From a virus (lineage: Duplodnaviria > Heunggongvirae > Uroviricota > Caudoviricetes): 64,000 bases of DNA. The stretch's first letter is position 1. Each line of letters starts with the position of its first letter. This document shows positions 944-37,435 of the stretch, piece after piece. The notes under the pieces were generated by a model that saw nothing but the letters and a program-made list of their open reading frames with translations, was not told the DNA's origin and searched no databases. Location of the stretch: the IMG/VR virus record IMGVR_UViG_2913167280_000003, positions 1 through 64,000 of that record; one strand, 5' to 3'. The translations under genes and the position numbers were made by a program.

Positions 944-2848
944 TTATGCGTATTGTTGGATGACGGCCATAACGTCCGCCACGTTGTGTTTTGTCTCAAT
1001 AATCCACCAGTTGCCCGGGAAATCGCTGTTCTTCGCCTTCGCTGGCAGCCAGCGAGCGCCGAATTTCGCCTTGATTGCGTCTTTAGCGCGGAAAAGAACG
1101 CCTTTCATGCCGGAGGCTTCCTGAAGCCCAAATACCTCGCCAGCGGCGAATTTTGGTGCGTACATCATCTTCAGGTCGGCGGTGGATACGCGATAATTCA
1201 GACCAAGAGACTGAGCTATGCTGGTGGCATCACCTTGTATTGATGATAACTCTTCTTGTTTCTCGTTTCTGGCGGCAATTTCTTCCTCCGTGATGTTGCC
1301 AAGGGCCAGGTTTATCCGATCAGCGTCTGCCTGTTTCTCTTCATCGGTGCGACCGGCAAGTGCCGTGTTAATTCTCTGCAATATCTCCGCATGATTCTTG
1401 CGCATGCTGAGCAATTCCGGCGTAACCTCGTTAAGGTCCACCAGCCCAAGGATGGCAAGGTCAGAAAACATTGATACCAGGTTGTAGGTCATGCGATAGC
1501 TGAGTTGGCCATAGGCTGATGGCAACTGCACCGAATCCATTTTATAGGCATCCATAAATTTAGAGCCTTCGTTTACGACATCCGCAATTGCAGGTGTGAT
1601 TTTCCCTGTGGTGATGGCCTCCCTGATTGCTGTTACCCACGATTGAGTCAGCGCGGCGACTGCATGATTCAGATTGGTTTTCCGTTCTGCTGCAATGCGC
1701 GCGCTTGCTGCGTCCATTGCCTGCTTGATCTCGTCTTTATTGCTGTAAATGCCAATGGTGCCAAACTGTGCTGTGGTGATCTCAAAATCTGACGCCCGGA
1801 ACTCATTGGTACCGAAAATGGCATTGGTGACCTCAAGTTCAGAATCCCCGTTACGGGTAGCCCCCTGGCTTGTTTTCTCCGGCATTCTGGCGATCGCATC
1901 CGCTATTTTCTCCTGAATTGCTTCAGGGGATAGCGTATCTCCGTATGACGCGATTACATCGCCATAATTGGAGCCAAACAGTTCAGTCAGGAATACTTCT
2001 GCCAAACGGACCTGGCGGTTATTCCCTTCCGACATCATACCAAGCACCCATTTAGCAATTGACGACTTCAGGGCGCCGTCACGGCGATCCGGATAAACCG
2101 CATGCTTCAGCGGGTCCGTATAGGTACCAACAAAATCAATGCTGTAGCCTGACTCTGTAGTCTGAACGCCGTATGAGTCAGTGATTTTGATCATGCCGCG
2201 CTGCTGGAAACGGTAGAAATCGTCACAGGAAATGATGTCGTTAATCCCGGCGATGGAGACGCCACCACTGATTTTCTGCATAACAGCATCTTCATCGGGA
2301 GTTACATCAACCTGTTTATCCAGCGTCTTCACATCCCAGTTACCCGATTTTGTGCCTTTGAAGGTAAAGATGATCTCCACGTCTGCGCGCTGGCTGTCGA
2401 AGTCCAGAGACTTAATGCGGACGATATCACCGGCACAATCGTAGTATTGGCCTACACGCCATGAGCGATCGCCGATAACAAGGAACTCACTCGCATGGTT
2501 AACCAGGTCAGGATCAACATCCAGAATGCCTTTATTTATTGCATCCTCCACCAGCGGGCGCAGGCGTTTGATATCCGTCGCGGCCTTCTGAGTACGGTTC
2601 AATAATTTCTCATAGCGGGAGATGGCTTGAGAGATATTAGCCTTGCGCTGAATGGCGCTTTTCAACGACGCGCGATACTGTGCTAACAACGTACGGTCTG
2701 TGTGATGGACGCTCCCCCAGCGGGCCTTCCAGTCTGCGTTATCAGCTGCTTTGGCCATTGCCGCCTGTTTGAATTTAGCTACCTCGGCGGTGGTCTTTTC
2801 AAGTTCCGCTTTGTTTCGCTCTAATTCAGCGGTAAGTACCCCCCACAT
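944..2848 (-). CDS. darB: DarB-like antirestriction protein, C-terminal segment (out of frame with the upstream segment)
   Basis: 634-aa ORF starting inside the last codons of the 1628-aa ORF; the two frames differ by one base at a 6-nt homopolymer (2839-2844). Combined length of about 2260 aa matches my recollection of P1 DarB. Confidence 0.55.
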   Translation of the reverse strand: MWGVLTAELERNKAELEKTTAEVAKFKQAAMAKAADNADWKARWGSVHHTDRTLLAQYRASLKSAIQRKANISQAISRYEKLLNRTQKAATDIKRLRPLVEDAINKGILDVDPDLVNHASEFLVIGDRSWRVGQYYDCAGDIVRIKSLDFDSQRADVEIIFTFKGTKSGNWDVKTLDKQVDVTPDEDAVMQKISGGVSIAGINDIISCDDFYRFQQRGMIKITDSYGVQTTESGYSIDFVGTYTDPLKHAVYPDRRDGALKSSIAKWVLGMMSEGNNRQVRLAEVFLTELFGSNYGDVIASYGDTLSPEAIQEKIADAIARMPEKTSQGATRNGDSELEVTNAIFGTNEFRASDFEITTAQFGTIGIYSNKDEIKQAMDAASARIAAERKTNLNHAVAALTQSWVTAIREAITTGKITPAIADVVNEGSKFMDAYKMDSVQLPSAYGQLSYRMTYNLVSMFSDLAILGLVDLNEVTPELLSMRKNHAEILQRINTALAGRTDEEKQADADRINLALGNITEEEIAARNEKQEELSSIQGDATSIAQSLGLNYRVSTADLKMMYAPKFAAGEVFGLQEASGMKGVLFRAKDAIKAKFGARWLPAKAKNSDFPGNWWIIETKHNVADVMAVIQQYA

Positions 2849-5800
2849 CCTCGCCAGCTGCGTGCTGCGCCTTGATGTAGTTCTGAAGGTCGATAGTAGC
2901 CTGTTCTTTCTGGCGAGCGCGTTGCGCTGCTTTCGCCTTATCCATTTGAACCTGCATCATAGCCAAACGTTCGCCGTCATCCTTAGCGGTATACATCTGC
3001 ATTTCGATCATGTCGTTGGCGTCGGCGTTCTCCATTTCTGACTTATCTGAACGGAGAATATCGGATATCCAACCAGCTTTACGTTTCAGTGTCTTCAGGC
3101 GGTATTCATCGAAAGAACCCTTGCCGCAGTAGTAGTGAACGCGAACGCTTGCACGGTTGGAGCCAACACGGGCGCCGCGACCGTTACGCTGTGCAATACT
3201 GGCTGGAGTCCACGGCAACGTCAGGTGGTGGATATCCGTCGTTCCTCGATGCAGGTTGATACCCACCTCTGCCTTTTTGTTGCAGATGATGATCGGGGTC
3301 CGGCCCTCCTGGAAGTCGGCAGCAATCTTTTCCAGCCCGCCCAGCGACATTTCATTTTGCTGCGCGATATAGGCGTCATACAGAGCCATTTGCTCGTTGT
3401 ATTTCGCTATCTGTGCATCTGTTGGTTCATCCGGTAGCTCTTTCGGAGGTTTAACCGCTTTCAGTTTCTTACCGGTTTTACCTGCCTCTGCAACCGTCTG
3501 AGCATTCAGGATCCCCACCTTTGAAGGTTCAAGGTTAAGAGCATTGCAGATAATGCGCTTGAGCTTCTGGTGCTGCGTTTTTTCATCGGTGAAGATGATT
3601 TGCTTACCTTCCGGGAAAAACTCCTTCAGCGTGGCAATCAGCTTCGCGTATTTGGGCGTAACGGGGTGAGTTACGGTCTGTTCGTCAATGCCAAACCTGG
3701 CCAGGCGCTTATTCACTTCCTGCTCGAACGCTTCCGGAACCTGCAACTGAATAAACTCGCCCTTATCTATCAGGGAGTATTGCGATTGTTGCGTGATTGA
3801 ATCATCACTGTCGTCGTCTTCGCTGGTGGCTTGTTTAGGCAAACTGTCCGCCAGCTGCTGCACCGCATCGGCGTACTCCGGCAGGAAACGATAGGTGATC
3901 CGGCGATAGTACAGGTCCATGTCAGTACATACGCGGTCCATATCCCTGATTATTGAGAAGATCGGACGGGCTTTCTCGTGCTCAATCACGCCGTCTTCAT
4001 TGACCGAGGTCGTTACGCCATTGTTGGCTTTGGCCGCCGCTTCCACCTGCTGACGCAATTCTTCATACGCCGCCAGTTGTTCTTCAGTAAGTGGTGCATC
4101 CTGCTGGTGCTCGTCCAGCTCCGGGATCTCCACGGTATCCTTAACGTCTTCCGCCGTTTTAAGCGTTGTCCACCGATGGAATATACCGCGCAGCGCATCA
4201 AGGTTTTCAAAGCCCACCAGCGCCATTTTTTCTTCAACTTCACCGCTTATTTTCTGTACCGCTTCCAGCCTGGTCTTGCCGAAGAATTTAACGAAGTCAT
4301 CAGGACCGTAGATCCCCATCTTCTGCCAGTATTCCTTCGGCAGAACATGAAAAAGCATGTTGTATGCATCGATCGGGGTGTTAACGACTGGCGTTGCAGT
4401 CAGGAGAACCGGTCCGCGCCCGCCATTCTTTTTCATCAGGTACGCGTTTTTGATTGCCATATCTCTCGCCGATTGCGCTACCGCGCTGGTGGGCAGATAG
4501 GCCAACTGTGACGCTTCGCGACCATTTTTATAGCTATTGCGGTAGTTGTGGCCTTCGTCGGCGATCACGCTGTCGAAGCCCATATCCTCAAAGTACGGAT
4601 ACTTCTCTGCTTTTTCGGTGCCGGTATCTGAATACTCCGACAATATCCGGCGGCGCGCCGCCTCTTTGCGATGGGAATCGGAATCCATTGCGCTGGCTAC
4701 GCGCCCGGCAGCAACGAAGTCATAAAGCATATCCTGTGCATGCTCATCTACGGTGTCATCGCGTAGCGGAATGCGGGCGTATTGTTCTTTGGTAAACACG
4801 ACTGCACGGTAATTTGAGTGCAGGATCGCGTTCATCCGCGCCGTGATAGTGGCTTCATCTGCCAGCTTAAGGGCATCGCGCATAAGTGGAGTGCCATCAG
4901 CATCAAGTACAGGTTTACCGTTCTCATCGAGCACCGGCGCCTGGCGAATCTGATCGCCGTCCATCAGTACATCCAGACCGACGAACAGGTAGTTACTGAA
5001 GGCTTCTTCACTCAGGAACTCTTTTGCTTCGTAATACCAGTTTTCCAGCACTGATTTAGGCACTACATAAGCAGTACGGGTGGAGCGACCGTTCTCATAG
5101 TTGAACGCCTCAAGCGCCAGCGCGGTCGTGGTTTTACCTATTCCAGTACCGAATCCCATAATGCCGCGCCCATCTTCGGACAGTCGGCGCACCTCGCTAT
5201 TCTGGTAATCAAATGGCTGTCGCTTACCGCTTAATCCCTTCAACCCAAGCGGATCGCCAGAATGTTCATACGGGATATTGCTATTGAAAACAGTGTTGTA
5301 TTTGGCAACCAGCTCATCGTAGCGATCATGCGTCTTGAGCCACTTATTGAACTGCTCCTCAAGCAGAGCCATCTGCTCGCGGTACCCGTTCGCCGTCGTG
5401 CTATCTTTGCCACCGATACGCGCACCATTGAGATACTTTTCCAGCTGTGCCGGGAACCCGGTCGCGTTTTCTCCTGATTTACGGTCCCACTCGTAGCGGA
5501 TCTCGCCTGTTTCTTTATCCTTGCGCTGGACGACACCGTATCGGTGCCCGACGAACAGACCATCACCACCGTGATAGGTGTCAGAAACCATTTCGTCGCC
5601 TTCCAGCTGCACTGACTGCACATAGCGCAGATCCGGATAGCCGTTTTCCTGCAAAAATTCCAGAATGACGGAACGGTCGAACCAACGGCTATTGAGCTTA
5701 AACCGGATATTCTCTGCTGGCGTCTTGATGCGCTTCTCTTCGATCGCTGCCAGCTGATTAAGGACGTTGTTCTTTACTGGACCGTCGGGGAGTGTGGCAA

Positions 5801-7712
5801 GGAATTCCTGTTTTGGAGCCACTATCTCGTTAATGTCGCCGCTGGTGGCGCGGGCGAACGGAACAATCCCGCCATACGGTGAAACCGCAATACCAGGGGT
5901 GCTGGCCAATAAATTAAGCAACTCTTCATCACTGGCTGGCAGTTCGCCGGTAAACGCAAGGCGGAAATCATCGAGCTGGATTGGATCGCGGGTAAGATCG
6001 CTATAGAGATAACGCAGGGTGTCCTGATAGCTGGTGGAGTCATAACTGGCGCTGGAATCATGCGTGACCAGCTTTCCTGTCAGCTCGTCAGAAATAGTGC
6101 CATCCAGCTTAATTGCACCACGGAAAGCAAACCAGGCGCGCGCACCGCTTCCCGATAATTTAGCTATCGGACCGCGACCGGGGTTACCAAAACGGTCAAT
6201 CTCTGCCTGCAAACGGGATACCAGAGAAAGGCGCTGCTGTTCGATTTGTTCAGCACTATGCCCGGCGGCCTTCATATCCTGATATTCAATTAACATCCGG
6301 CCAATCATCGCCCCGCGATACAAGCGTTCACGGTATTTTTCAGGCTGGCTGTTAATCCAGTCCACCAGCTGTACCATATCGTCGCTGATTGATGTGGTGT
6401 ACTTATCGCGGACATTTGCCATCTGGGTAAATGTCATGCCGAGACGGCCTTCAGTGGTAGTCAGGTTACGCTGAAGAGCCTCCCAGCTATCCGCGCCATA
6501 ACTGGCAACATCAATCTTCAGCTCCTTCCCGGCATCAGCTTCAATCCAGCGACCACCAGCATATTTTTGCCATACGCCATTAATCAGGCGCATTTCCCCT
6601 TCATCAACAACGTCTGCGGTCGGTGACGGTTCAGCCATATCAAGCAAAGACCAGTCGATACGGCTTTCGAAACGATGAATCAGCTTCGCTTTAAGAGCCT
6701 GGTTATCAATCTGCCCGTCGGCACGAACCTCAATACGCCCCTGGAATCCCTTCTCCTGGGTGCCATGAATAAACCGGCGGCCGTCCTTTTCAAACCACTT
6801 GCCAGAAATAAACGTTGGCCAAAGCACATTTGCCGATTCAAGAGTACCTTCATCCACCAGGGGGATTTTCTCAGCCATCTCCGCCGGATGTTTGCGCATC
6901 AGCACCACGTCAACGACTGTACTGGTCCCGTTTGCGTCAAAAGTACCGGTAGGCAAGCGGTGAGCGCCAAGAAATTCAGCTTTACGGGATAGGCGCAGGC
7001 GTAACCGCTTCATGTTTGAACCTGAAACAATGGACGGCGGCACAATCACACACATGAATCCGCCTGGCTTTATCTTGTCCAGCATGCGGAGCATGAAGTA
7101 AGAACCCATGTCCGTTTCTTCTGCGTAAGGCTTATCGATGTTGCGTGTGTTATCACGCCCGCCGAACGGAACGTTACCCACAACATGGTCGAATGAATCG
7201 TTAGGCGTGCTTACAGCCAGCTGTTCGAACGGGGAAATCTGTACGCTGTCTTCCGGATGCAACAGCTGGTTTATACGACCGGAAACACTGCTGATCTCAG
7301 TCGCAGTCATCACTGTACCAACCGGTTTTGTCTCATTAAAAACACCGGTTCCCGCGGAAGGTTCCAGGGTGTTACCTACGTCCGCGCCATAGAGCTTCAT
7401 GATCTCCCAGACGCCTTCAGCGATAGGTTTTGGTGTGTAATATTCGGAGACGGACCCGCCAATGCCGCCTTCACCGGTGTACCCAGCCAGGATCTGGCGC
7501 TGTTCATCTGTCAGTGTCGTGCCGTCCACCAGCGAATTAAGCAAATCTATCGCCTTCTGATTCGCCTCCCGGCGCAGTCGGTCATAGCTTTTGCCTTCCA
7601 CCTTTTCCACGCCGTATCTAATCGGCGCTCGATGAGATGTTATTGCCCTAATGTATTTCAATATTTCGCTGACACTTGAACAGCGAAAAACCCCCATAGA
7701 TAGCTTGTTCAT
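2826..7712 (-). CDS. darB: DarB-like antirestriction protein, N-terminal segment (N6-adenine methyltransferase-like and SF2 helicase-like domains)
   Basis: 1628-aa ORF. SAM-binding-like motif LEPSAGTGVF, NVPFGG (NPPY-like), Walker A GFGTGIGKTT and DEGH box. Confidence 0.75.
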   Translation of the reverse strand: MNKLSMGVFRCSSVSEILKYIRAITSHRAPIRYGVEKVEGKSYDRLRREANQKAIDLLNSLVDGTTLTDEQRQILAGYTGEGGIGGSVSEYYTPKPIAEGVWEIMKLYGADVGNTLEPSAGTGVFNETKPVGTVMTATEISSVSGRINQLLHPEDSVQISPFEQLAVSTPNDSFDHVVGNVPFGGRDNTRNIDKPYAEETDMGSYFMLRMLDKIKPGGFMCVIVPPSIVSGSNMKRLRLRLSRKAEFLGAHRLPTGTFDANGTSTVVDVVLMRKHPAEMAEKIPLVDEGTLESANVLWPTFISGKWFEKDGRRFIHGTQEKGFQGRIEVRADGQIDNQALKAKLIHRFESRIDWSLLDMAEPSPTADVVDEGEMRLINGVWQKYAGGRWIEADAGKELKIDVASYGADSWEALQRNLTTTEGRLGMTFTQMANVRDKYTTSISDDMVQLVDWINSQPEKYRERLYRGAMIGRMLIEYQDMKAAGHSAEQIEQQRLSLVSRLQAEIDRFGNPGRGPIAKLSGSGARAWFAFRGAIKLDGTISDELTGKLVTHDSSASYDSTSYQDTLRYLYSDLTRDPIQLDDFRLAFTGELPASDEELLNLLASTPGIAVSPYGGIVPFARATSGDINEIVAPKQEFLATLPDGPVKNNVLNQLAAIEEKRIKTPAENIRFKLNSRWFDRSVILEFLQENGYPDLRYVQSVQLEGDEMVSDTYHGGDGLFVGHRYGVVQRKDKETGEIRYEWDRKSGENATGFPAQLEKYLNGARIGGKDSTTANGYREQMALLEEQFNKWLKTHDRYDELVAKYNTVFNSNIPYEHSGDPLGLKGLSGKRQPFDYQNSEVRRLSEDGRGIMGFGTGIGKTTTALALEAFNYENGRSTRTAYVVPKSVLENWYYEAKEFLSEEAFSNYLFVGLDVLMDGDQIRQAPVLDENGKPVLDADGTPLMRDALKLADEATITARMNAILHSNYRAVVFTKEQYARIPLRDDTVDEHAQDMLYDFVAAGRVASAMDSDSHRKEAARRRILSEYSDTGTEKAEKYPYFEDMGFDSVIADEGHNYRNSYKNGREASQLAYLPTSAVAQSARDMAIKNAYLMKKNGGRGPVLLTATPVVNTPIDAYNMLFHVLPKEYWQKMGIYGPDDFVKFFGKTRLEAVQKISGEVEEKMALVGFENLDALRGIFHRWTTLKTAEDVKDTVEIPELDEHQQDAPLTEEQLAAYEELRQQVEAAAKANNGVTTSVNEDGVIEHEKARPIFSIIRDMDRVCTDMDLYYRRITYRFLPEYADAVQQLADSLPKQATSEDDDSDDSITQQSQYSLIDKGEFIQLQVPEAFEQEVNKRLARFGIDEQTVTHPVTPKYAKLIATLKEFFPEGKQIIFTDEKTQHQKLKRIICNALNLEPSKVGILNAQTVAEAGKTGKKLKAVKPPKELPDEPTDAQIAKYNEQMALYDAYIAQQNEMSLGGLEKIAADFQEGRTPIIICNKKAEVGINLHRGTTDIHHLTLPWTPASIAQRNGRGARVGSNRASVRVHYYCGKGSFDEYRLKTLKRKAGWISDILRSDKSEMENADANDMIEMQMYTAKDDGERLAMMQVQMDKAKAAQRARQKEQATIDLQNYIKAQHAAGEDVGGTYR

Positions 7713-7778: not shown

Positions 7779-10509
<2,731 letters not shown>

Positions 10510-11528: not shown

Positions 11529-12017
11529 GTGGCACAACGCGGTGTAAACAAAGTCATCCTGATTGGTACCCTGGGGCAAGACCCGGAGATCAGGCATATA
11601 CCAAATGGCGGAGCAGTCGGAAGACTCAGCATCGCAACGAATGAATCATGGCGCGACAAGCAAACGGGCCAACAGAAAGAGCAAACAGAATGGCATAGAG
11701 TCGTTTTGTTCGGGAAACTTGCTGAAATTGCGAGTGAGTATTTACGAAAAGGTTCTCAGGTCTACATCGAAGGGAAACTTAAAACCCGTAAGTGGACAGA
11801 TGACGCCGGTGTAGAACGTTACACGACGGAAATTATCGTCAGCCAGGGCGGAACCATGCAAATGATCGGCGCCCGCCGCGACGATTCACAATCCTCAAAT
11901 AGCTGGGGGCAATCAAACCAACCTCAAAACCACCAGCAATACAGCGGTGGCGGTAAACCTCCGAGCAACGCCAATAACGAACCTCCAATGGACTTTGAAG
12001 ACGATATTCCGTTTTAG
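11529..12017 (+). CDS. ssb: Single-stranded DNA-binding protein
   Basis: N-terminus [21 protein letters not shown] matches the SSB OB-fold start; Gly/Gln-rich linker; acidic C-terminal tail ending DDIPF. Start assigned to GTG 11529. Confidence 0.9.
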
Positions 12018-12291
12018 GAGTTGACTTGTGAGCCATGTGTAAAAAACGACTGAAAGAAAACACCACGGAAGAGGTGGAAAGTGATTAATTTTTACTAGAA
12101 TAAAAAGGGGCCCCAGAGAGCGCCCTGATAATACGAAATTAAAGGGAAATAAATTACAAGAAGTGTAATTCTTTGCCCTCTGAATATGCAATCATGGTTA
12201 GACAAGCAAGATAGGGCGAATTAAAATTAATCAATAGTCACTTTGTTAAGATGCGCAACATCGCTTTAACATTTTATGCTTGTCATGATAT

Positions 12292-12912
12292 TTGCCTGGA
12301 AGCCTCATGAATACATATTCTGATAAAATACACAACCTTATAGATATAGCCAAATTAGCTGTGGCCATGAGGGAACATAGCTATTTTTTCGCACTTCGTC
12401 GAGGAATAGATGTTAATTTTTGTGCTGATTTAAACGGGAGTGGTACACAAGGGATATTCATAAGAAAAAAAAGTTTTAACGCGTATGAGCCAAGTTTTAT
12501 TGAAGTAATTTTTGAACCCACTCATAAAAACGATGATTCATTTCTATACGAAGAGGACCTTACTACCGATCAACGAAAAGACTACGAACCTAGTATTAAC
12601 AGAGGAAAACATCGATTCGTTGCCCAACGTGCTAAACTAAATCTCGACTGGGACAGTAATGAAATCCAACAATGGCGTTTGGATATTGAGCGACTTTCTA
12701 AACCACACAACACTCTTAATGACTGGTTAGAAAATGATTCAGAGATAATGATAATACATCTCTGCGGCGGTTATAGGTTCCGTGAACCAGTGATACTTTC
12801 TCAAAGAGACATTAAACAATATGTAGCTTCAGGATTGACTCTGGAAGACTTAAAAAATCGGCTAAAGTGCTCAATATGTGGTGAGCGAAACGCCAAAATT
12901 AAAGTTTTTTGA
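12292..12912 (+). CDS. Hypothetical protein, low-GC orphan gene
   Basis: 206-aa ORF in a markedly AT-rich segment between ssb and the end of the dar operon; no recognisable motif. Followed by a 10-bp-stem hairpin (12931-12960). Confidence 0.5.
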   Translation: MPGSLMNTYSDKIHNLIDIAKLAVAMREHSYFFALRRGIDVNFCADLNGSGTQGIFIRKKSFNAYEPSFIEVIFEPTHKNDDSFLYEEDLTTDQRKDYEPSINRGKHRFVAQRAKLNLDWDSNEIQQWRLDIERLSKPHNTLNDWLENDSEIMIIHLCGGYRFREPVILSQRDIKQYVASGLTLEDLKNRLKCSICGERNAKIKVF

Positions 12913-20429: not shown

Positions 20430-20669
20430 ATGCTAATAGGCTAAGTACGCGTATCAACAAATGAACAAAACACTGCTTTGCAACGAAATGCCCTTAAAAG
20501 CGCAGGATGTGAGCTAATTTTTGAGGATAAGGCGAGCGGCAAAAAGGCTGAACGCCCTGGGTTAAAAAAGGTTCTGCGTATGCTTTCCAGAAGTGACACC
20601 CTGGTCGTATGGAAGTTAGAGCGTCTTGGGCGCAGCATACGTCACTTGGTTGTGCTGGTGGAAGATTGA
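20430..20669 (+). pseudogene. cin: Serine invertase (Cin/Gin/Hin family) remnant, nonsense at codon 5 and truncated after about 79 codons
   Basis: Reads MLIG-stop-VRVSTNEQNTALQRNALKSAGCELIFEDKASGKKAERPGLKKVLRMLSRSDTLVVWKLERLGRSIRHLVVLVED. TAA at 20442-20444 replaces the conserved Tyr5 codon and the frame stops at 20669; the rest of the enzyme is absent. Confidence 0.8.
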
Positions 20670-20906
20670 AAAGTTAGCAGTTATCACAGCTACCCGATCA
20701 CTATCCGGAGCAATGAAGAAGATAGCGAGAATGGAAGAAAACACCTAACAATTTGATACATGATATTTTTACACGAAGAGCGAAACTCCTTTTGCAGGAA
20801 ATGGTCGCAATTACCTTTATGATGAAGGGTTGTCAACAGTTATTCTATTTTTTATAATCCACAAAAAAACAATTCAGGGTATTTTATATAAAAGTCAAGG
20901 CAACAT

Positions 20907-21449
20907 ATGGATATTGATTTTCTTAAAGAGTGTCTCCTAGTTGAAGTTATTGGTGGGGGTAATAAACAATTCTCATGGCCTCGCGCCATTCGCCATGCCT
21001 GGCGGCAACCTAAACGCAGGTTTCTTTTTTGGTGGCGTATAGCATCTTATCTATATGATATGGACAACAAATATCTAAAAAAACTCGGAAAGAAAATTAA
21101 CAGAAATTTATCCTTTAAATACAATACTGATATTGAACTTGGAGCATCAATAGCTCCTGGATTATACATTGGACATTATAGTGGCATTGTTATTACAAGA
21201 TATGCAACGATTGGTAGAAATTTTAATATAAGGCAAAACACAACTATTGGTTTAAAAAATTCTAACACTAACAGAGTTACCATTGGAGATAATGTTAATA
21301 TTGGAGCAAACTCCTGCATAATCTCAGACCACATCACTATAGGTGATAATGTAAAAATAGGGGCTTTTACCTTTGTAAATAAAGATATACCTTCAAATTC
21401 AACTTATTACACCAGGAAAATCAATATATGCAAGGAAAGGGAGGCGTAG
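20907..21449 (+). CDS. Hexapeptide-repeat (left-handed beta-helix) acetyltransferase
   Basis: 180-aa ORF in an AT-rich segment. Tandem [LIV]-G-x4 repeats: IGHYSGIVITRYATIGRNFNIRQNTTIGLKN, TIGDNVNIGANSCIISDHITIGDNVKIGAFTFV. Confidence 0.75.
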   Translation: MDIDFLKECLLVEVIGGGNKQFSWPRAIRHAWRQPKRRFLFWWRIASYLYDMDNKYLKKLGKKINRNLSFKYNTDIELGASIAPGLYIGHYSGIVITRYATIGRNFNIRQNTTIGLKNSNTNRVTIGDNVNIGANSCIISDHITIGDNVKIGAFTFVNKDIPSNSTYYTRKINICKEREA

Positions 21450-21464
21450 CCCCCCCCTTCTTTA

Positions 21465-22043
21465 CTATTTCATAAATTCTGGCCACTCGATATTAGGAGC
21501 ATCGTCAGGGTTAACTCGGTTAAGTAACACCCGGTATCTTTTCCATTTTATCAAACTTACTTTCTCTTCTTCTGTAGCCATATCCAAATCGACAGCATCT
21601 TGCAGAGTGGCAATAATTTCACCTGCATATGCAATCTTCTCCTTCTTCTGAGACTCAGCCGCTCTTACAAATGCATCACGCTCTGCCTTCTCATCATTAA
21701 CCCACACATTTCCATTCCATTTTTGATAATCCCCATCCGGGAAAATAGCTGTCACGTCTGGAGGTAATGCGCCAAGTTCAGAAATATAAATGGCTGCACC
21801 CGTTTTCGTTTCGTAGACGGTCTTTCCGCGATGGTCCTCCACCAGATGCCATTTCATTTCATCAGCATTAAATACAGCAGCAAAACCTGCTGGAATATCT
21901 GGAGGCGCAATATCTGTGCTGTTTGCAGGAATACCCGTATGTGGAGGAATATATGCGTCACTTTCACCAATAAATTCATTTGTACCATCGAGATAATTAA
22001 ATACGCGAATAGTTTGTGCTTCTGCACTCATTTTAAAACTCAT
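21465..22043 (-). CDS. U: Tail fibre assembly protein (U-like)
   Basis: 192-aa ORF immediately downstream of and overlapping the tail-fibre gene. Assigned by position and size. Confidence 0.6.
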
Positions 22044-25000
22044 TATGCAAGCCTCACTATATAATTAAATGCAATGTTTTTGACGGTGTTTTCGGTATTA
22101 CCCGTTGGATTTACCGTGATAGTGTGTCCGTGTGTTCCCAATGCCAAAGTGTGTGCATGGGCGCCAATACCAACAGTATGATTGTGAGCACCAATTCCTA
22201 CTGTATGGGCATGGTTGCCTGCAGAGCTTGTTTGAACTGTATTCCGAAGGCCATCTGCATCCCAATCACCTCTGGTGCCAGATGCTTGAGCTCCTGTTAT
22301 GTAACCATGTGTATGGGCACCTGTTGTATTGGTTGTTTTTGTTCCGTAATCAAATGTACTGACTGTTTTCGTGCCGTAATCAAATGAGCTGGTCGTTTTA
22401 GTACCGAGGTCAGTATTTGATGCACTGGCACTGTGAGTATGCGATTTAATCCCGTCCTGTTCCTGTGACAATACGGCACGCCCACTGGCGGGTTTGCCCT
22501 TGATTGTCCAGCCGCGCATATCAGGAATAACACCAGAAGGATAGGCTATAGCCAGTTTCGGATATGCTGCCTTATCAAACGTCTGCCCCTGCATGATTGC
22601 ATAGCCTGCAGGTGGTGTATCTGATGGCCACGGCAGCGGAACACCTGGCGGAAACGCTTCAATATTTGCCGAGCCGTCAAATTTTACGCCGTTAATTGTC
22701 CTTGCCGTTTTCAGCTTTGTTGCTGTAGCAGCATTGCCAGACAGTTCACCAGAAAGGCCAGCACTGAAGGTTTGCTTCGCCGCCCATGTCTGGGCTTCGT
22801 CAATTATCGGCACTCGTCTTGCCGTGATCGTGCGGCTTCCCGGATTTCCTGAGATGCGCACCATGAAGAAACGGTAGTTTGCTTTACTTACAGTGCTGCG
22901 CCATACATGCATTGAGCGCCCCGTACCGGAGTCATCACTTGGGCCAACCGCGATGTTTATTAGGTTTCCATCAATGACGCCCCAGTCCATGCCGTCGGGA
23001 ATGTTAGTCATATTATCAAGCCGAACGGTTATCAGACTGCCCGGAACGAAATCGTAGGTCTGCCAGTCCAGGCTGGTGAGTTTTGCCACTGCGCCACCGA
23101 TACCCAGATTCAGGGGCAACGAAAAGGAGTTATATACTTCTCGCCATTCGGTCCATTTGCTCCCGGCGTAGACGCGCTCAAAAGTGCGCCCCTGTGTGGT
23201 TTCTGCTTTCCCTGTGGTTGTGTAACGCTGCCAGACAGACACACCATCAAAACGTCTGATTACTTCCAGTATCCCAAGCAGTGTTGCTCCAGCGGTATCC
23301 TGCATTGGACCGTTTGTTGCCTTCCCTGTAACGCTGTAAATGCCAGGTGAAGTCAGATCATTCAAATCACCTTCGTAATAACGACATTCTGACTGGTGGC
23401 CTACTCTTGACCACGGTTCCCACTGTGGGTTCTTTGCATCCCATGCAGCAGAAAGACAGCGAACATACACATTTCCGCGGCGGGTCGTGTAACGTTGTGT
23501 TCGTGAGTAACCACCACCTTCAAGGACTTCAAGAAGTCCCTGCCCATAACTGCCTTCTTCTGGATAGTTGCGTTCAAATGACGCTATAGAGCCACTACTG
23601 TTTCGCCATGAGCCAAGATGCTCTGCGCCTCCGAGCGTATTCAGGTCAATGGTTGTACTCAGAGAGCGTGTTGCTGACTGAATCTGTCGCCAGTAGCTCC
23701 AAGGGCCGTCAGAGCCATTCCAGGAACCAGAAAGGTTGCGCATATAAACATTGCCAGTTCTGGTGGTATAACGCTGCATTCCGGAAAAATTACCGCCATT
23801 GAATACCTCAAGAACACCGACGGCACCGTCTTCCGGGAAATGTTTCTCCAGTGTTGCGTTGGATGATGTGGATTTATACCAGCCCCCCACATAATCCTTA
23901 ACTGGACCGAAAGTATTCAGGTCTGCATCAACTGGCATTTCGCCGTTGTTTTTCATAAACGTCAGGCTGGTGACGTCAAGGTTTGCAGGCGTCAGAGAAA
24001 TATCTTTAGAACCGTCAAATGAAACGCCGTTTATCTTTCTGGCTGTTTTTAATTTCGTCGCGGTATCGGCGTTCCCCGTCAACGCACCGCTGATCCCACC
24101 GTTGAAAGTCTGGCGTGCGCTCCAGGTGTTAGCCGTACTCAACAGGGGGATCTTTTCGCCGCTTGTGCCGAGTTCTCTTAAACCAAGGTATTGGATAACA
24201 GCAAGGACACTTGTTTTAGCCAGAATATCGCGACCGACTGACGTTAAATCAGTCTGGGCAACAGTATCTTTACCGGTAAAGTACGGCAATTTATTTGCGC
24301 CGGTCGCAAGGCCAGCGAGCGCGGTTAAAGTTGCATCCAGAGGCTGTTTGCCTGCCAGCGCATTGGTCATTGTTGTCGCAAAGTTCGGGTCATTGCCAAG
24401 TGCTGCTGCAAGCTCATTCAGGGTATCAAGAGCTTCTGGTGATGAGCCGACCAATGCAGATATAGCAGCCCGTACGTAAGCAGTCGTAGCGATCTGCGTA
24501 TTATTTGTTCCCTGTGCAGCGGTAGGCGCAGTAGGGATTCCCGTTAATGCAGGACTTGCCAAAGGCGCTTTAAGAGCCAGTGCGTTATTGATAGTGGCAC
24601 TGAAATTCGGGTCGTTATTGATAGCTGCCGCAATTTCTTTCAGCGTATCCAATGCTCCAGGAGCACCATTGATAAGTGCAGTTATAGCGGCCTTAACAAA
24701 GGCTGTATTTGCGATCTGCGTGCTGTTTGTACCTTGAGCTGCCGTCGGCGCGGTTGGCGTTCCTGTCAGACTCGGGCTTTCTATCGGCGCTTTGGTATCA
24801 GCCAGATCTTTTACAGACTTGACGGCTTTAGGGGTAGCCGCCATTGTTTCGCTGTCGCTGTCAGTTGCGCTACTGAGCTGAACTAACCCCTTTTGCGTTG
24901 TGCTTGCATCCTGCGCCGTATACTTGCTTTTCGCCAGATCGTAGGCTTTTTTAACTGCCAGAGAACTTGCAGCGACATCGCTTCTGCTGCTGGTTACAGA

Positions 25001-25546
25001 GTCTGAAATTTCAATGCCAATCGTGCGGTTGATACGCTCTGATGTATCAATCATCTCCTGGGTAATGGCAGATACCCCGGCAGGGATATTCACCGTACAA
25101 ACAAGCAGCTCACCATCTCCTAACTGATATGAATCGGTATAAGTTCTGGCGACAAATTCAGCCGCATGAATATGTGAGGCGGTATTAACCTGATAGGTGT
25201 CTTCTCCAAGAAGGTATCTTCCCTTCAGCACAATTGCATATTTTTTGCCTGCACTAAGTGCAAGGGAGATATCCCTACGGTGTTGAATAGTTACCTGATA
25301 GAATTCGCCAATATCCACTGACGCCGCGCCAGCAGTTTTATCACCATCCAGTGAGGTGATTAACAGGTTCATCCCACCGCCAGGCTTCGGCAGGAAACCG
25401 GCATAAAATCCTGGGTCAACAATTCCCCTGAATTTTCGGTTTAGCGCGGCTGACAGATATGGTTCGTGGTATTGCACATCAGCCACCAGAGCCAGTGACT
25501 CGGGGGATGGGTAAGTAACTGATGTGACAACTGTAACGTCATTCAT
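22043..25546 (-). CDS. S: Tail fibre protein (S-like)
   Basis: About 1167 aa from the internal ATG at 25546 (AAGGA RBS). Two tandem ~75-aa fibre repeats ([10 protein letters not shown]...NDPNF) and a His-rich C-terminal region ([22 protein letters not shown]). Confidence 0.8.
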
Positions 25547-25557
25547 CAAGCATATCC

Positions 25558-25992
25558 TTATGCTATAGTCGAGTTGATGGCCATAACTGCGGTATATGTT
25601 TTGCCCACATACAGCGAGTCTTCCTGAACACAAATAATTGCGATGGGCTTATTCTCGTTATCCAGAACAACCAGAGTGTTGAATGGGTAGTTTTTCCCTT
25701 CCTGCAACTGGCTTTGATCAAGGTCCATTCGGACAGTAATTATCCCGCCAGAGTAGGTAGGGACGAGGTTGATGGTGCAAAATTGACTGGTCAGTTCTGC
25801 CAGCTCGAAAGTCTTTGGCAGTTCTCCAATCTCATAAGTGCCATCTTCATTTTTGGTAACCAGTGAGCTGGTACCGAAAACGGCCTTGCTGATTAAAAAT
25901 CGAGAGCCTTTGTTAATGGACGATTCAGCGCGCCGCTGATAGTAATAGTCCAACAACTGACTCTTATAGAGGTTTGTTGAGACGTCAGACAT
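25558..25992 (-). CDS. Tail fibre-associated protein (R-like position)
   Basis: 144-aa ORF immediately upstream of S in the same operon. Confidence 0.4.
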
Positions 25993-34480: not shown

Positions 34481-35374
34481 ATGCATTCTTTACAGAAATA
34501 CATAAAACATAAATATACTCACTTAACTTTTTTTCTCTCATTACTTTTTTTCATGATATTTGAATCGCGAGAAGATCTTATCAAGAAAATATTATCTTTT
34601 TCTCTCAATGAAGTTTTACCATTCTTAATGTTTGCGTTCTTCTCCGTATTTATCAGCATAACGATAAAGGAAAAGATAGCAAAGAAATACCCAGAAACAA
34701 ACGATGGGATTACCATTATAGCTTTAATCTTTGGTGTAACACTATATAGTGTGTTTATCTTATATTATTTATATGGTGATGTATACCAATCCACAATTGC
34801 TTTACTTATAAGTTCTGTGCTACTTGGTTCTGGGTGGTGGGTTCAGGCTACTGTGAGTAAAGTAGCCGCAAGAAAATCACACACCTTAAATACACTAATG
34901 AATCAAAGAAACAGTGAATTATTTCACAAGAAAGTTTCATCGGTAGCGAATACGTTCGGGCTTAGAAAAACCATAAATGAAATTATTGCCAAACAAAGAC
35001 TTGTCCCAAATGATAAAGATTTAAAAAATAAAAAGGTCCATGATGAATACATATCAGCAGGTAATGATATGTTCTTCGTTCTTAATTATTATGAATTTAT
35101 CTGTTCAGGAATAATAAATGGGGACTTTGATGAAGATTCAATGAGAGAATGTCTTGGACAAATTGTTCCAGGTCTCGAAGTTAGAGCATTTCATTTTATA
35201 AGAATTGCAAGAGAAATTTCAGGGAGTAGCTGCTTCTGTAATTTTGTCGCTGTTTCAGACAAATGGTCTACTAATGGAGGCTCTCTTATTCTCAGACACG
35301 AGAAAGGAGAACCTGTGATTAATAACCTGACCCATTGCTTTGAAGAAACAGACTGTTTTAACATAACTTCTTAA
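34481..35374 (+). CDS. Predicted 4-TM membrane protein with ~170-aa cytoplasmic C-terminal domain (accessory gene)
   Basis: 297-aa ORF, very AT-rich, AGGA RBS 6 nt upstream. Hydrophobic helices LTFFLSLLFFMIF, VLPFLMFAFFSVFISITI, GITIIALIFGVTLYSVFILYYLYG, TIALLISSVLLGSGWWV. Bracketed by ~90-bp direct repeats. Confidence 0.6.
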   Translation: MHSLQKYIKHKYTHLTFFLSLLFFMIFESREDLIKKILSFSLNEVLPFLMFAFFSVFISITIKEKIAKKYPETNDGITIIALIFGVTLYSVFILYYLYGDVYQSTIALLISSVLLGSGWWVQATVSKVAARKSHTLNTLMNQRNSELFHKKVSSVANTFGLRKTINEIIAKQRLVPNDKDLKNKKVHDEYISAGNDMFFVLNYYEFICSGIINGDFDEDSMRECLGQIVPGLEVRAFHFIRIAREISGSSCFCNFVAVSDKWSTNGGSLILRHEKGEPVINNLTHCFEETDCFNITS

Positions 35375-35380
35375 TATTTT

Positions 35381-35407
35381 GTAACCCATAATCGCTTTAT
35401 GGGTTAC
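35381..35407 (+). terminator. Hairpin downstream of the membrane-protein gene
   Basis: GTAACCCAT-(9 nt)-ATGGGTTAC perfect 9-bp stem, 7 nt after the stop codon. Confidence 0.4.
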
Positions 35408-35609
35408 GTTAAATTTGCAATAAAAAAATCAATCGCCGGGCTTTAAGCATCCATCGTTTTTGGCTTGTTGATATAACTTACTTAGCCCAGAAAGAGGGAA
35501 TGTGGCAATTTTTTCATTATCAACATAAGCATCAATCACATTAGCATTTGAATCTGCTGCATCCTGCCAAAAGGCATACCACCAAGAATCTCCAACCATT
35601 GACCCAAGA

Positions 35610-35699
35610 GGGATTTGACGTCTTCGAGTAATTGTCGTTGTGTCATTGACACCTCGTAGAATCTGGTGTGTTAACCGATTCTACGAGTTATCATTTGTT
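35610..35699. repeat. Direct repeat copy 2 (~90 bp), duplicate of the pmgC-like 5' end and promoter
   Basis: 85/89 identical to 34215-34303; retains the ATG and first 12 codons ([12 protein letters not shown]) and the ACAAATGATAA-N4-TAGAAT motif. Confidence 0.85.
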
Positions 35700-35799
35700 A
35701 CCGGTCAGTCTACACATTTCAGATGCTGCGTTAAAAAACTCAAGAGCTTCAAGTAGCATATCGTCATCAACACCCAGCCCGAAGATGCTGAGATAAAAT

Positions 35800-36984
35800 T
35801 CAAGCTTTAAGAGGCTTTGTGTATGTTCGTGTAATCCATCCAGTAATAAACTCGTCCCCTGATTTAACCTGCACGAAAAGCCATTGGCGATCTTTTTTAT
35901 CTAAAATAGCAACAATTGTATTTTTACCAATGCACTCTATCACTTCACTATTTAAAGAAGGACTGACATGTAATCTTACATTATCACCTGTTATAGCTCT
36001 AAAATTATTAAGATCCTCCCACTGAATATCTTTATTTTCTTGTGTTAGCTTTTGCTTAGATATTGGCTTATCCTCATTTAGGGATAGAATATATGATTCC
36101 ATCCCGTAAATTTGCGATAATGTTTTTTCTTTCGCATAATCAGTTATAGCGCCAAGAAATACTTGACACAAAATCCACAGAAGAAAAGTCTGAACAGGAG
36201 AAGGAAGCGCCTTAAATGAATCAATAAACGTCGAACTAGATTTATTTAATCCTTTGTCTTGAGCATCACTTTCAGTGTGTGATGTTTCAATGGCACCTTC
36301 GATATAAGCCTGTGCAATTGTTGAAAGACCTTGCTCCATTATTTGATGAAATGAAGCCTTTTGTGCTTGAGTATATTGATTTAATAATTCTTTTATTTCA
36401 TTGTTTAAATCTATCTTGTGAGTTACATTTTTCCGCAATTCATTAAGCATTGCTTGCATGTTATTCAAGCCAGCTTGCTTATTAAGCATCTCGAACTGGT
36501 TTCGTAACGGCATAGCTATTTCGGCCTGTTTCCTTAGCATTTGAATGTGTTTATTTGCATCATGAGTGGAAAAAGCCTGAGCCTGTTTCTGTAAAATATC
36601 AATATGTTTACGAAACTCGTTGCCTATTCCTGCCAGTTTCGGCATATTCTCAAACTGTTTTCGAATAGAATCACTAACTATGGATTGCAAATTAAATCTT
36701 GCTATTTGTTCTTGAGCTAGCTGTCCTATTCTTAACTGTTTTTGCAAGTTTGCCATATGTTCTTTATACGATGGAATGATTGCGTTTTTTTGCAGTTCCG
36801 CCAACTGTCTAACCAAATTATTAGAAGCATAATCTGATTTTAATAAATCACTTACCGATTTATATTCGGGCATTTTGATTTTATTTAAATCATCACGCCA
36901 AGTAATATTTGAATCTTTATTATAAAGATCGCTTACTGAGCCAAGAGCAAGTTTTTTAATGTCCTTCACTTTATTCACCGTCAT
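35800..36984 (-). CDS. Hypothetical protein: helical N-terminal region, one predicted TM helix, C-terminal SH3b-like domain
   Basis: 394-aa ORF, AT-rich; hydrophobic segment VQTFLLWILCQVFLGAITDY; C-terminal region (NVRLHVSPSLNSEVIECIGKNTIVAILDKKDRQWLFVQVKSGDEFITGWITRTY) resembles bacterial SH3 folds. Start overlaps the upstream gene by 14 nt. Confidence 0.5.
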   Translation of the reverse strand: MTVNKVKDIKKLALGSVSDLYNKDSNITWRDDLNKIKMPEYKSVSDLLKSDYASNNLVRQLAELQKNAIIPSYKEHMANLQKQLRIGQLAQEQIARFNLQSIVSDSIRKQFENMPKLAGIGNEFRKHIDILQKQAQAFSTHDANKHIQMLRKQAEIAMPLRNQFEMLNKQAGLNNMQAMLNELRKNVTHKIDLNNEIKELLNQYTQAQKASFHQIMEQGLSTIAQAYIEGAIETSHTESDAQDKGLNKSSSTFIDSFKALPSPVQTFLLWILCQVFLGAITDYAKEKTLSQIYGMESYILSLNEDKPISKQKLTQENKDIQWEDLNNFRAITGDNVRLHVSPSLNSEVIECIGKNTIVAILDKKDRQWLFVQVKSGDEFITGWITRTYTKPLKA

Positions 36985-37435
36985 CTTGCTTTAAACACCC
37001 ATCATTTTTAGCTTCCTTGTAAATACTTGAAATGCCATCAAGAGAGAATGATGTAATTCGACGCGATCCGATATATACATCCATGTTTTTTTCTTTTGTG
37101 GCTGACGCTGACTTCCAAAAAGAATACCATTCCCTACGATTAGGAGAAGTGTTTTGCGTGCCAATATTAAAACTATCCGAACCAACAATTAAAGTAATTA
37201 CATCTGCTTTACGAGAAATTGTGTCGCGTGTAGAAAAATCGGCATTCTCTTTTCCTCCGCTTACATACAAATTTCTTCCAGCGATATGGTCTTCAGAACC
37301 ATCCCTTGCACCAGCATCACAAGAAAAATTAATTGTATAGCCATCCTCATGACATGCTCCGGCAAAGCGCCTCATTTGACGCTCCTGTTGACCATCTTGT
37401 CTTAACTGGAATTTAAATGCTTGTAGTCGTTTCAT
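36971..37435 (-). CDS. Hypothetical soluble protein, first gene of a two-gene operon
   Basis: 154-aa ORF with no TM segment or signal peptide; translationally coupled to the 394-aa gene. Confidence 0.5.
   Translation of the reverse strand: MKRLQAFKFQLRQDGQQERQMRRFAGACHEDGYTINFSCDAGARDGSEDHIAGRNLYVSGGKENADFSTRDTISRKADVITLIVGSDSFNIGTQNTSPNRREWYSFWKSASATKEKNMDVYIGSRRITSFSLDGISSIYKEAKNDGCLKQDDGE

What the first reader, a model, noticed from the sequence alone, without database searches (positions are those of the whole stretch)
2820..2850. darB is split into two overlapping ORFs by a one-base frameshift in a 6-nt homopolymer
The 1628-aa methyltransferase/helicase ORF ends at 2826 and the 634-aa continuation starts at 2848 in another frame; the frames meet at a run of six C (plus strand, 2839-2844). 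Removing one base gives a continuous protein of about 2260 aa, matching my recollection of P1 DarB. This is either a sequencing error, a genuine inactivating mutation of the antirestriction protein, or a slippage-prone tract allowing phase-variable darB expression.
Basis: seen in the sequence. Interest (0 to 1): 0.55.

Follow-up and report, generated by a model that had tools for sequence, protein, structure and literature searches.

The report
Recent one-base frameshift splitting darB
The phage P1-type antirestriction gene darB in this plasmid-prophage is cut in two by one extra G in a six-G run; this is an ordinary, very recent gene-breaking mutation (or possibly a base-calling error), not a new regulatory device.

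Summary
On the minus strand, darB (944-7712) is split into a 1628-aa ORF and a 634-aa ORF that overlap around a G6 run (C6 on the plus strand, 2839-2844). Deleting one G restores a 2255-aa DarB. This is the only indel in the 6.77-kb gene, and darB is the only one of about 50 P1-homologous genes in the window that changes frame.

The tract is not a conserved homopolymer. P1, P7 and 371 PLSDB plasmids read GGAGG here (Glu1624). One sister plasmid, 10 SNPs away over 18 kb, has an intact DarB with Gly1624, which implies an in-frame G5. The path is therefore GGAGG, then GGGGG, then GGGGGG.

The shifted C-terminal third has no stop codons and matches the sister protein exactly, so the event is very recent.

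The window is contig RHJM01000047.1. An Ion Torrent assembly of the same plasmid (Escherichia clade II strain E2593) also shows G6, but it makes a proven G5-to-G6 error elsewhere.

- **Most likely (about 0.68):** a genuine slippage mutation that truncates DarB.
- **Artefact:** about 0.24.
- **Phase variation or programmed recoding:** unsupported, 0.05 or less.

darB is often broken in P1-like plasmids, so interest is low.

The parts
944..7712 (-). Whole darB locus (6769 nt, one base longer than the 6768-nt intact gene), flanked by ulx (470-910, -) and prt (7788-9497, +) as in P1
   Evidence: tblastn with P1 proteins: DarB residues 1-1623 in frame -3 at 98.6% identity and 1625-2255 in frame -1 at 96.2%. 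Synteny as in P1. No product is on record for this gene in the source contig.
2839..2844 (-). G6 run on the coding strand (C6 on the plus strand); site of the single extra base
   Evidence: relatives read GATGTGGAGGTACTT, the window reads GATGTGGGGGGTACTT. It is the only indel in the gene.
2826..7712 (-). 5' ORF of 1628 aa: DarB residues 1-1624 (with Gly1624) plus the out-of-frame tail GTYR. It carries the N-terminal 30-residue capsid-targeting sequence, the N6-adenine methyltransferase domain and the SNF2/ResIII and Helicase_C domains.
   Evidence: Pfam hits: N6_Mtase 145-290, SNF2-rel/ResIII 833-912, Helicase_C 1455-1517. The first 30 residues are identical to P1. They are the capsid-targeting sequence according to PMC9024508.
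2826..2828 (-). Premature TGA stop, reached four codons after the shift
944..2848 (-). 3' ORF of 634 aa: M-W-G followed by DarB residues 1625-2255. It has no Pfam domain but is a conserved, constrained part of DarB. The ATG at 2848-2846 is a fortuitous out-of-frame ATG inside GAT-GTG.
   Evidence: no Pfam hit; matches phrog_1685 positions 1621-2278; 70% aa identity to the Cronobacter phage JK004 homologue over 630 aa; dN/dS 0.18-0.35; identical to the C-terminus of the intact sister protein P0016.

Best explanation
This is a genuine and very recent +1 G insertion, by replication slippage, in darB of a P1-like plasmid-prophage of Escherichia cryptic clade II. In this sub-lineage an A-to-G substitution (GAG to GGG, Glu1624Gly) first turned the interrupted GGAGG into an uninterrupted G5 run. 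In the window's plasmid the run then gained one G. Translation from the normal darB start now ends four codons later, giving a 1628-aa protein. That protein keeps the capsid-targeting N-terminus and the methyltransferase and helicase domains, but loses the conserved 631-residue C-terminal third. The leftover 634-aa ORF has only a GAGG directly abutting its ATG. It also lacks the packaging signal, so even if some is made it should not enter virions. The expected result is loss or weakening of DarB-dependent protection against EcoK/EcoB-type restriction, which is tolerated because darB is non-essential. Shown here: the sequence change, its uniqueness, its recency and the intact sister allele. 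Inferred: that the extra G is in the DNA rather than only in the reads, and the functional consequences.
For: (1) The single extra G is the only indel in 6.77 kb of darB.
(2) darB is the only one of about 50 P1-homologous genes in the 64-kb window with a frame change. All other coding indels against P1 are compensated or in multiples of three. The window also shows 0 gaps against an independent sister assembly over 18.3 kb. The assembly is therefore not prone to homopolymer errors.
(3) The same plasmid (0 mismatches over about 48 kb) was assembled separately as PDII01000037.1 and by Logan from SRR6148325, and both read G6. The window lacks all 57 homopolymer errors of the Ion Torrent assembly, including a G5-to-G6 miscall in repL. 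The window's data therefore resolve G5 correctly at a similar site (G5 followed by TA) yet still read G6 in darB.
(4) The sister plasmid SRR26188678_341 encodes an intact 2255-aa DarB with Gly1624. This gives the in-frame G5 precursor that a one-step slippage needs.
(5) darB is dispensable (CRISPRi 'NE', PMC10695390) and is frequently damaged in P1-like plasmids. Only 437 of 703 PLSDB records cover at least 80% of the gene. SJ46 has a nonsense codon at 1499, and a Salmonella plasmid has a 2-bp deletion.
Against: The second data set for this plasmid is Ion Torrent (PMC6639607), and it demonstrably overcalls G5 as G6 in repL. Its agreement on G6 is therefore weak corroboration. The sequencing platform and read set behind the window's own assembly (RHJM01) could not be identified. 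The 634-aa ORF appears in only one Logan run, so no public read set for RHJM01 was seen. The shifted C-terminal part shows no decay at all, which fits an artefact as well as a very recent mutation.
Confidence: 0.68

Rival explanations
1. Base-calling or assembly artefact. The real plasmid has the in-frame G5 allele (Gly1624) like its sister, and one G was overcalled in the homopolymer, so darB is intact.
For: The difference from the intact sister allele is exactly +1 in a homopolymer, and the downstream frame is perfectly preserved. The strain's public reads are Ion Torrent. The Ion Torrent assembly has 57 homopolymer indels in 48 kb, among them a G5-to-G6 overcall in repL, again at a G5 followed by TA. 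The platform of the window's own assembly is unknown.
Against: The window's assembly has none of those 57 errors and reads G5 correctly in repL. It has no other frameshifted gene in 64 kb and no gap against the sister over 18.3 kb. Its error rate at the 49 G/C 5-mers is therefore at most about 1 in 49. Three assemblies agree on G6.
Confidence: 0.24
2. Regulated expression. The G run acts as a contingency tract (G5/G6 switching, phase-variable DarB), or is bypassed by +1 ribosomal frameshifting or transcriptional slippage, so that some full-length DarB is still made.
For: G5 and G6 alleles both exist in two near-identical plasmids. A P-site tRNA-Gly on GGG could re-pair perfectly at +1 on G-GGG-GG, and that would restore the native frame (sequence). 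A GAGG lies upstream.
Against: The tract is only 5-6 nt, shorter than the roughly 7-8 or more typical of known contingency loci (established knowledge). It lies 72% into the gene. It is absent from every other relative examined: 371 plasmids, the compared phages and three large contig collections. No homologue is organised as two ORFs at this point. The A-site codon GGU is common (43 uses in ORF1). The stop codon is four codons away rather than adjacent. The GAGG spacing of 5 nt differs from the 3 nt of prfB. All these bases are simply conserved coding sequence of intact darB genes.
Confidence: 0.05
3. A functional split gene. The 1628-aa and 634-aa products are both made (the second by termination-reinitiation at the overlapping ATG) and together replace DarB.
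For: The ATG of the second ORF lies 20 nt upstream of the first ORF's stop, a geometry that can allow translational coupling. Both halves are intact.
Against: The ATG is a chance out-of-frame triplet that is also present in intact genes. The GAGG abuts it with no spacer. The C-terminal piece lacks the N-terminal 30-residue capsid-targeting sequence needed for packaging (PMC9024508). No relative shows this arrangement, and the event is too recent to have been shaped by selection.
Confidence: 0.03

Closest known systems
DarB of phage P1/P7 (2255 aa; virion-packaged antirestriction methyltransferase-helicase 'polyvalent' protein)
   Same: Same locus and synteny (lxc-ulx-darB-prt). Identity is 96-97% at nucleotide level and 98.6% / 96.2% at protein level for the two parts. 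The N-terminal 30 residues are identical and the Pfam domains are the same.
   Different: One extra G at codon 1624/1625 splits the reading frame, and Glu1624 is replaced by Gly.
Other disrupted darB copies in P1-like plasmid-prophages (for example Salmonella phage SJ46, Salmonella sp. CHC plasmid NZ_OP927715.1, and many PLSDB records with partial darB)
   Same: An independent loss-of-function lesion in the same dispensable 6.8-kb gene, while the rest of the prophage looks intact.
   Different: The lesions and positions differ: SJ46 has a nonsense codon at 1499, CHC has a 2-bp deletion near nt 6017, and others have large 5' deletions. The G6 insertion was found only in this plasmid.
Homopolymer contingency loci (phase-variable poly-G/poly-C genes of Neisseria, Haemophilus, Campylobacter)
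   Same: A frameshift by a one-unit change in a G run, with in-frame and out-of-frame alleles in close relatives.
   Different: The tract is short (5-6 nt), not conserved, newly created by a substitution, and located late in the gene. There is no evidence of switching.
prfB-type programmed +1 ribosomal frameshifting
   Same: A +1 shift would restore the frame, and P-site re-pairing on G-GGG-G is possible.
   Different: There is no adjacent stop or rare A-site codon, the Shine-Dalgarno-like spacing is wrong, and homologues show no conservation of a split architecture.

Membership tests
DarB (P1 defence-against-restriction B) | Full-length similarity to P1 DarB and position between ulx and prt | tested here: met
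   residues 1-1623 and 1625-2255 align at 98.6% and 96.2% identity. ulx and prt flank the gene as in P1.
DarB (P1 defence-against-restriction B) | N-terminal capsid-targeting sequence (first 30 residues; PMC9024508) | tested here: met
   the first 30 residues are identical to P1 and P7.
DarB (P1 defence-against-restriction B) | N6-adenine methyltransferase plus SF2/SNF2 helicase dyad | tested here: met
   N6_Mtase/Eco57I, SNF2-rel_dom/ResIII and Helicase_C, all above their Pfam cut-offs, all in the 1628-aa ORF.
DarB (P1 defence-against-restriction B) | Single uninterrupted polypeptide of about 2255 aa | tested here: not met
   split into 1628 + 634 aa by one extra G. As written, it is a frameshifted (pseudo)gene copy of darB.
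DarB (P1 defence-against-restriction B) | Protects phage DNA against EcoK/EcoB type I restriction | not testable with these tools
   Needs efficiency-of-plating assays on restricting hosts.
Phase-variable contingency locus | Homopolymer long enough for high-rate slippage (typically 7-8 nt or more for G/C) | tested here: not met
   the run is 6 nt, and 5 nt in the in-frame sister allele.
Phase-variable contingency locus | Tract conserved among relatives, with length polymorphism | tested here: not met
   All 371 PLSDB plasmids that match the site, and all compared phages, read GGAGG. No G5/G6 allele was found in IMG/VR, GTDB representatives or JGI metagenomes. Only one sister has G5.
Phase-variable contingency locus | Mixed tract lengths within one population | not testable with these tools
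   Requires the reads (SRR6148325, SRR26188678, and the reads behind RHJM01).
Programmed +1 ribosomal frameshift (prfB-like) | Slippery P-site codon followed by a stop or rare A-site codon, with a Shine-Dalgarno-like stimulator 3 nt upstream | tested here: not met
   the A-site codon is GGU (43 uses in ORF1), the stop is four codons downstream, and GAGG lies 5 nt upstream.
Programmed +1 ribosomal frameshift (prfB-like) | Two-ORF arrangement conserved in homologues | tested here: not met
   where undamaged, homologues have one ORF.
Sequencing artefact at a homopolymer | Other homopolymer frameshifts in the same assembly | tested here: not met
   there is no other frame change in about 50 genes, and 0 gaps against the sister over 18.3 kb.
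Sequencing artefact at a homopolymer | Not reproduced in independent data | tested here: inconclusive
   G6 is reproduced in PDII01 and in the Logan assembly of SRR6148325. Those reads are Ion Torrent and overcall G5 in repL.

The most novel reading that the evidence does not exclude
The Glu1624Gly substitution created a new mutable G tract. In this plasmid lineage the tract flips between G5 (full-length DarB) and G6 (a truncated methyltransferase-helicase without the C-terminal third). This would be an incipient, heritable on/off or full/short switch of a virion-delivered antirestriction protein.
Probability: 0.04. Interest if true: 0.45.

Novelty: already known. Interest (0 to 1): 0.12.

Why it matters
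It matters little beyond correct annotation. darB in this contig should be treated as a frameshifted gene (the source record holds no protein for it), and the 1628-aa and 634-aa ORFs should not be counted as two novel proteins.

If the mutation is real, the plasmid offers a natural C-terminal truncation of DarB. It retains the packaging signal and both enzymatic domains, so it could be used to ask what the uncharacterised C-terminal third does.

The case also shows how a single substitution (GGAGG to GGGGG) creates a slippage-prone or miscall-prone site. It shows as well how often the 6.8-kb darB decays in P1-like plasmids.

Tried and rejected
**Searches that found nothing**
- Pattern scans for a G5 or G6 allele in IMG/VR, GTDB species representatives and JGI metagenomes gave no hits.
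- 61-mer and 62-mer BLAST searches against PLSDB gave no exact match among 371 records.

**Attempts to read the sister plasmid's DNA at the site**
- The DdrB look-up locus stops 490 nt short of the site.
- The IsaB and Ulx look-ups returned other plasmids.
- I therefore reconstructed four candidate full-length proteins and used exact-sequence look-up. That identified the Gly1624 allele, but the Gly codon itself is inferred to be GGG.

**Attempts to identify the platform behind RHJM01**
- Literature searches for RHJM and neighbouring accessions and for SRR6148325 found nothing. Only PDII01 / strain E2593 (Ion Torrent) was traced.
- The RepL look-up, meant to see whether Logan's SRR6148325 assembly has the repL miscall, did not list that run. 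This is uninformative.
- The column 'samples_with_this_contig = 4' for the window's contig could not be interpreted, so I did not use it.

**Other**
- Piya et al. 2017 (PMC6011833) is not held.
- I considered relaxed selection as evidence for a real pseudogene. Window-private changes downstream of the shift are 15 synonymous to 7 non-synonymous, similar to 52:18 upstream. There is no amino-acid difference from the sister downstream. The data therefore say only that the event is recent.
- The excess of non-synonymous SNPs between the window and its sister in darB (5 of 6) occurs on both branches. It is typical of very recent polymorphism, so I rejected it as evidence.
Full report
**1. The observation**

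The plus strand reads ...GGTAAGTACCCCCCACATCC..., with six C at 2839-2844. Two minus-strand ORFs meet there: 2826..7712 (1628 aa) and 944..2848 (634 aa). They overlap by 23 nt.

On the coding strand the sequence is GGC GAG GAT GTG GGG GGT ACT TAC CGC TGA. Frame 0 ends ...AAGEDVGGTYR*. The +1 frame reads ATG TGG GGG GTA CTT... = MWGVLTAELERNK.

**2. What the gene is**

The window is a P1-like plasmid-prophage, 96-97% identical to P1, P7 and hundreds of Escherichia and Salmonella plasmids.

- P1 DarB (2255 aa) aligns as residues 1-1623 in one frame and 1625-2255 in another.
- The first ORF carries the N6-methyltransferase, SNF2/ResIII and Helicase_C domains. The second has no Pfam domain.
- Both ORFs match consecutive parts of one PHROG profile, positions 1-1620 and 1621-2278.
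- The first 30 residues are identical to P1. They are the capsid-targeting signal of DarB (PMC9024508).
- The C-terminal third is a real, constrained part of the protein. It is 70% identical to the homologue in Cronobacter phage JK004, with dN/dS of 0.18-0.35 among P1-like copies, against 0.02-0.05 for the N-terminal part.

**3. The lesion**

A MAFFT alignment of the whole gene with P1, P7, SJ46 and four plasmids shows one indel only. The window has GATGTGGGGGGTACTT where all the others have GATGTGGAGGTACTT. The difference is therefore an A-to-G change plus one extra G, not a length change in a pre-existing homopolymer.

- All 371 PLSDB plasmids that match the site have GGAGG.
- Further relatives fetched later also have GGAGG.
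- Glu1624 is kept even in JK004.
- No G5 or G6 allele exists in IMG/VR, GTDB representatives or JGI metagenomes.

**4. Source and close relatives**

Exact-protein look-ups show that the window is positions 1-64000 of GCA_004212315.1 contig RHJM01000047.1. Identity is 100% and the coordinates coincide.

The 1628-aa product is not on record and darB is not listed among that contig's genes. This is consistent with the source annotating darB as a pseudogene.

The same plasmid, with 0 mismatches over about 48 kb, is present in two other assemblies:
- GCA_004745395.1 contig PDII01000037.1.
- Logan's assembly of SRR6148325.

PDII is Escherichia cryptic clade II strain E2593 from Hong Kong intertidal sediment. 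It was sequenced on Ion Torrent and assembled with MIRA and SPAdes (PMC6639607). Both of these assemblies read G6 at the site.

A sister plasmid in Logan run SRR26188678 differs by 10 SNPs and no gaps over 18.3 kb, and its DarB is called as 2255 aa. Its locus stops 490 nt before the site. I therefore built four candidate full-length proteins and looked them up by exact sequence. Only 'sister N-terminus + Gly1624 + window C-terminus' exists (P0016, on the 38,061-bp contig).

So an in-frame allele with Gly1624 (most simply GGG, a G5 run) exists. Its C-terminal 631 residues are identical to the window's out-of-frame part. The path is GGAGG, then GGGGG, then GGGGGG, and the last step is very recent.

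**5. Real mutation or artefact?**

*Evidence for a real mutation*
- The window's assembly is clean. darB is the only one of about 50 P1-homologous genes with a frame change.
- All other coding indels against P1 are compensated or in multiples of three.
- There is no gap against the sister over 18.3 kb.
- The window lacks all 57 homopolymer indels of the Ion Torrent assembly. Of these, 55 are +1 in A/T runs. One is a G5-to-G6 overcall at window 40646 that breaks repL.
- The data behind the window therefore differ from SRR6148325. They resolve a G5 followed by TA correctly in repL, yet still give G6 in darB.

*Evidence for an artefact*
- The corroborating reads are Ion Torrent and make exactly this kind of error.
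- The platform behind RHJM01 is unknown.
- The perfect preservation of the downstream frame fits either view.

I put a real mutation at about 0.68 and an artefact at about 0.24.

**6. Regulation?**

Restoring the frame needs a +1 (or -2) shift. P-site re-pairing on G-GGG-G is formally possible, but several features argue against programmed frameshifting:
- The A-site codon GGU is common.
- The stop codon is four codons away.
- The upstream GAGG is 5 nt from the shift codon.
- Every base involved is ordinary conserved darB coding sequence.
- No homologue has a two-ORF layout at this point.

A run of 5-6 nt, 72% of the way into the gene and private to two plasmids, does not meet the features of a contingency locus. 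The downstream ATG is a chance out-of-frame triplet (G ATG TG) with GAGG directly abutting it, and its product would lack the packaging signal. These readings together get 0.08 or less.

**7. Consequence and context**

If real, virions would carry, at best, a DarB truncated after residue 1624. Loss or weakening of protection against EcoK/EcoB-type restriction is expected but untested.

darB is non-essential (PMC10695390), and its mechanism is still undefined (PMC11109961; PMC5512222). Damage to darB is common in P1-like plasmids:
- Only 437 of 703 PLSDB records with darB sequence cover at least 80% of the gene.
- About 5 of 36 sampled full-length copies carry no annotated protein.
- SJ46 has a nonsense codon at 1499 and a Salmonella plasmid has a 2-bp deletion.

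**8. Verdict**

No new mechanism is indicated. Novelty: already known kind. Interest: low.

Noticed in passing
window 40642-40646 (repL, 40177-41022 +); L022 (PDII01000037.1): The Ion Torrent assembly of the same plasmid (strain E2593, GCA_004745395.1) differs from the window by 57 homopolymer indels and 0 substitutions over about 48 kb. One of them is a G5-to-G6 overcall that breaks repL. Many genes in that public assembly are therefore artefactually split.
   Followed up: yes
window 3322-7712 vs L019 (Logan SRR26188678_341): Six of the 10 SNPs between the window and its sister plasmid fall in the 4.4 kb of darB covered (binomial p about 0.016). Five of the six are non-synonymous: three derived in the window (L792, A925, F1121) and two in the sister. 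This contrasts with the strongly synonymous long-term pattern (Fisher p about 0.0008). It is probably unpurged recent polymorphism, but that was not resolved.
   Followed up: partly
window 21450-21457: The longest G/C homopolymer in the window is a C8 run. It sits in the 15-nt gap between two convergent ORFs: a Hexapep acetyltransferase-like gene (20907-21449, +) and a tail-fibre assembly gene (21465-22043, -).
   Followed up: no
window 20430-25633: Only the first 79 codons of the cin invertase are left (20430-20666), and the alternative S'/U' segment of P1 is missing. The tail-fibre gene (22043-25633, ORF 1196 aa) shares only its N-terminal 518 residues with P1 S. The invertible C-segment host-range switch therefore appears to be lost or replaced in this plasmid.
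   Followed up: partly
window 55056-57320: dmt encodes 754 aa here. In the P1 isolate used for comparison it encodes 1013 aa, and residues 79-418 of that protein have no counterpart in the window. Several relatives have a 1095-aa version with weak Hint_2 and faint LAGLIDADG_3 hits. This suggests an intein-like insert that the window lacks.
   Followed up: no
window 34481-37435 and 12015-12307: The simB/simC region of P1 is replaced by other genes: DUF4760 (297 aa), an SH3_3-containing protein (394 aa) and a YfjT-like protein (154 aa). rlfA/rlfB/pmgF are absent, and so are IS1 and isaA between ssb and isaB.
   Followed up: no
L014 (Salmonella phage SJ46), L011 (NZ_OP927715.1), PLSDB hits: darB carries independent lesions in relatives: a nonsense codon at 1499 in SJ46 and a 2-bp deletion near nt 6017 in a Salmonella plasmid. 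Many plasmids also keep only the gene from nt 2800 or nt 4954 onward, annotated 'helicase-related protein'. These recurrent end-points suggest a few widespread deletion variants.
   Followed up: partly
L016 position 5489 (= window 6992): Logan's assembly of SRR6148325 has a further one-base deletion (GCGCC to GCGC). It splits the upstream darB ORF into 270 + 1357 aa. The deletion is absent from the window and from PDII01's overlapping part, so it is another read-level artefact of that run.
   Followed up: yes
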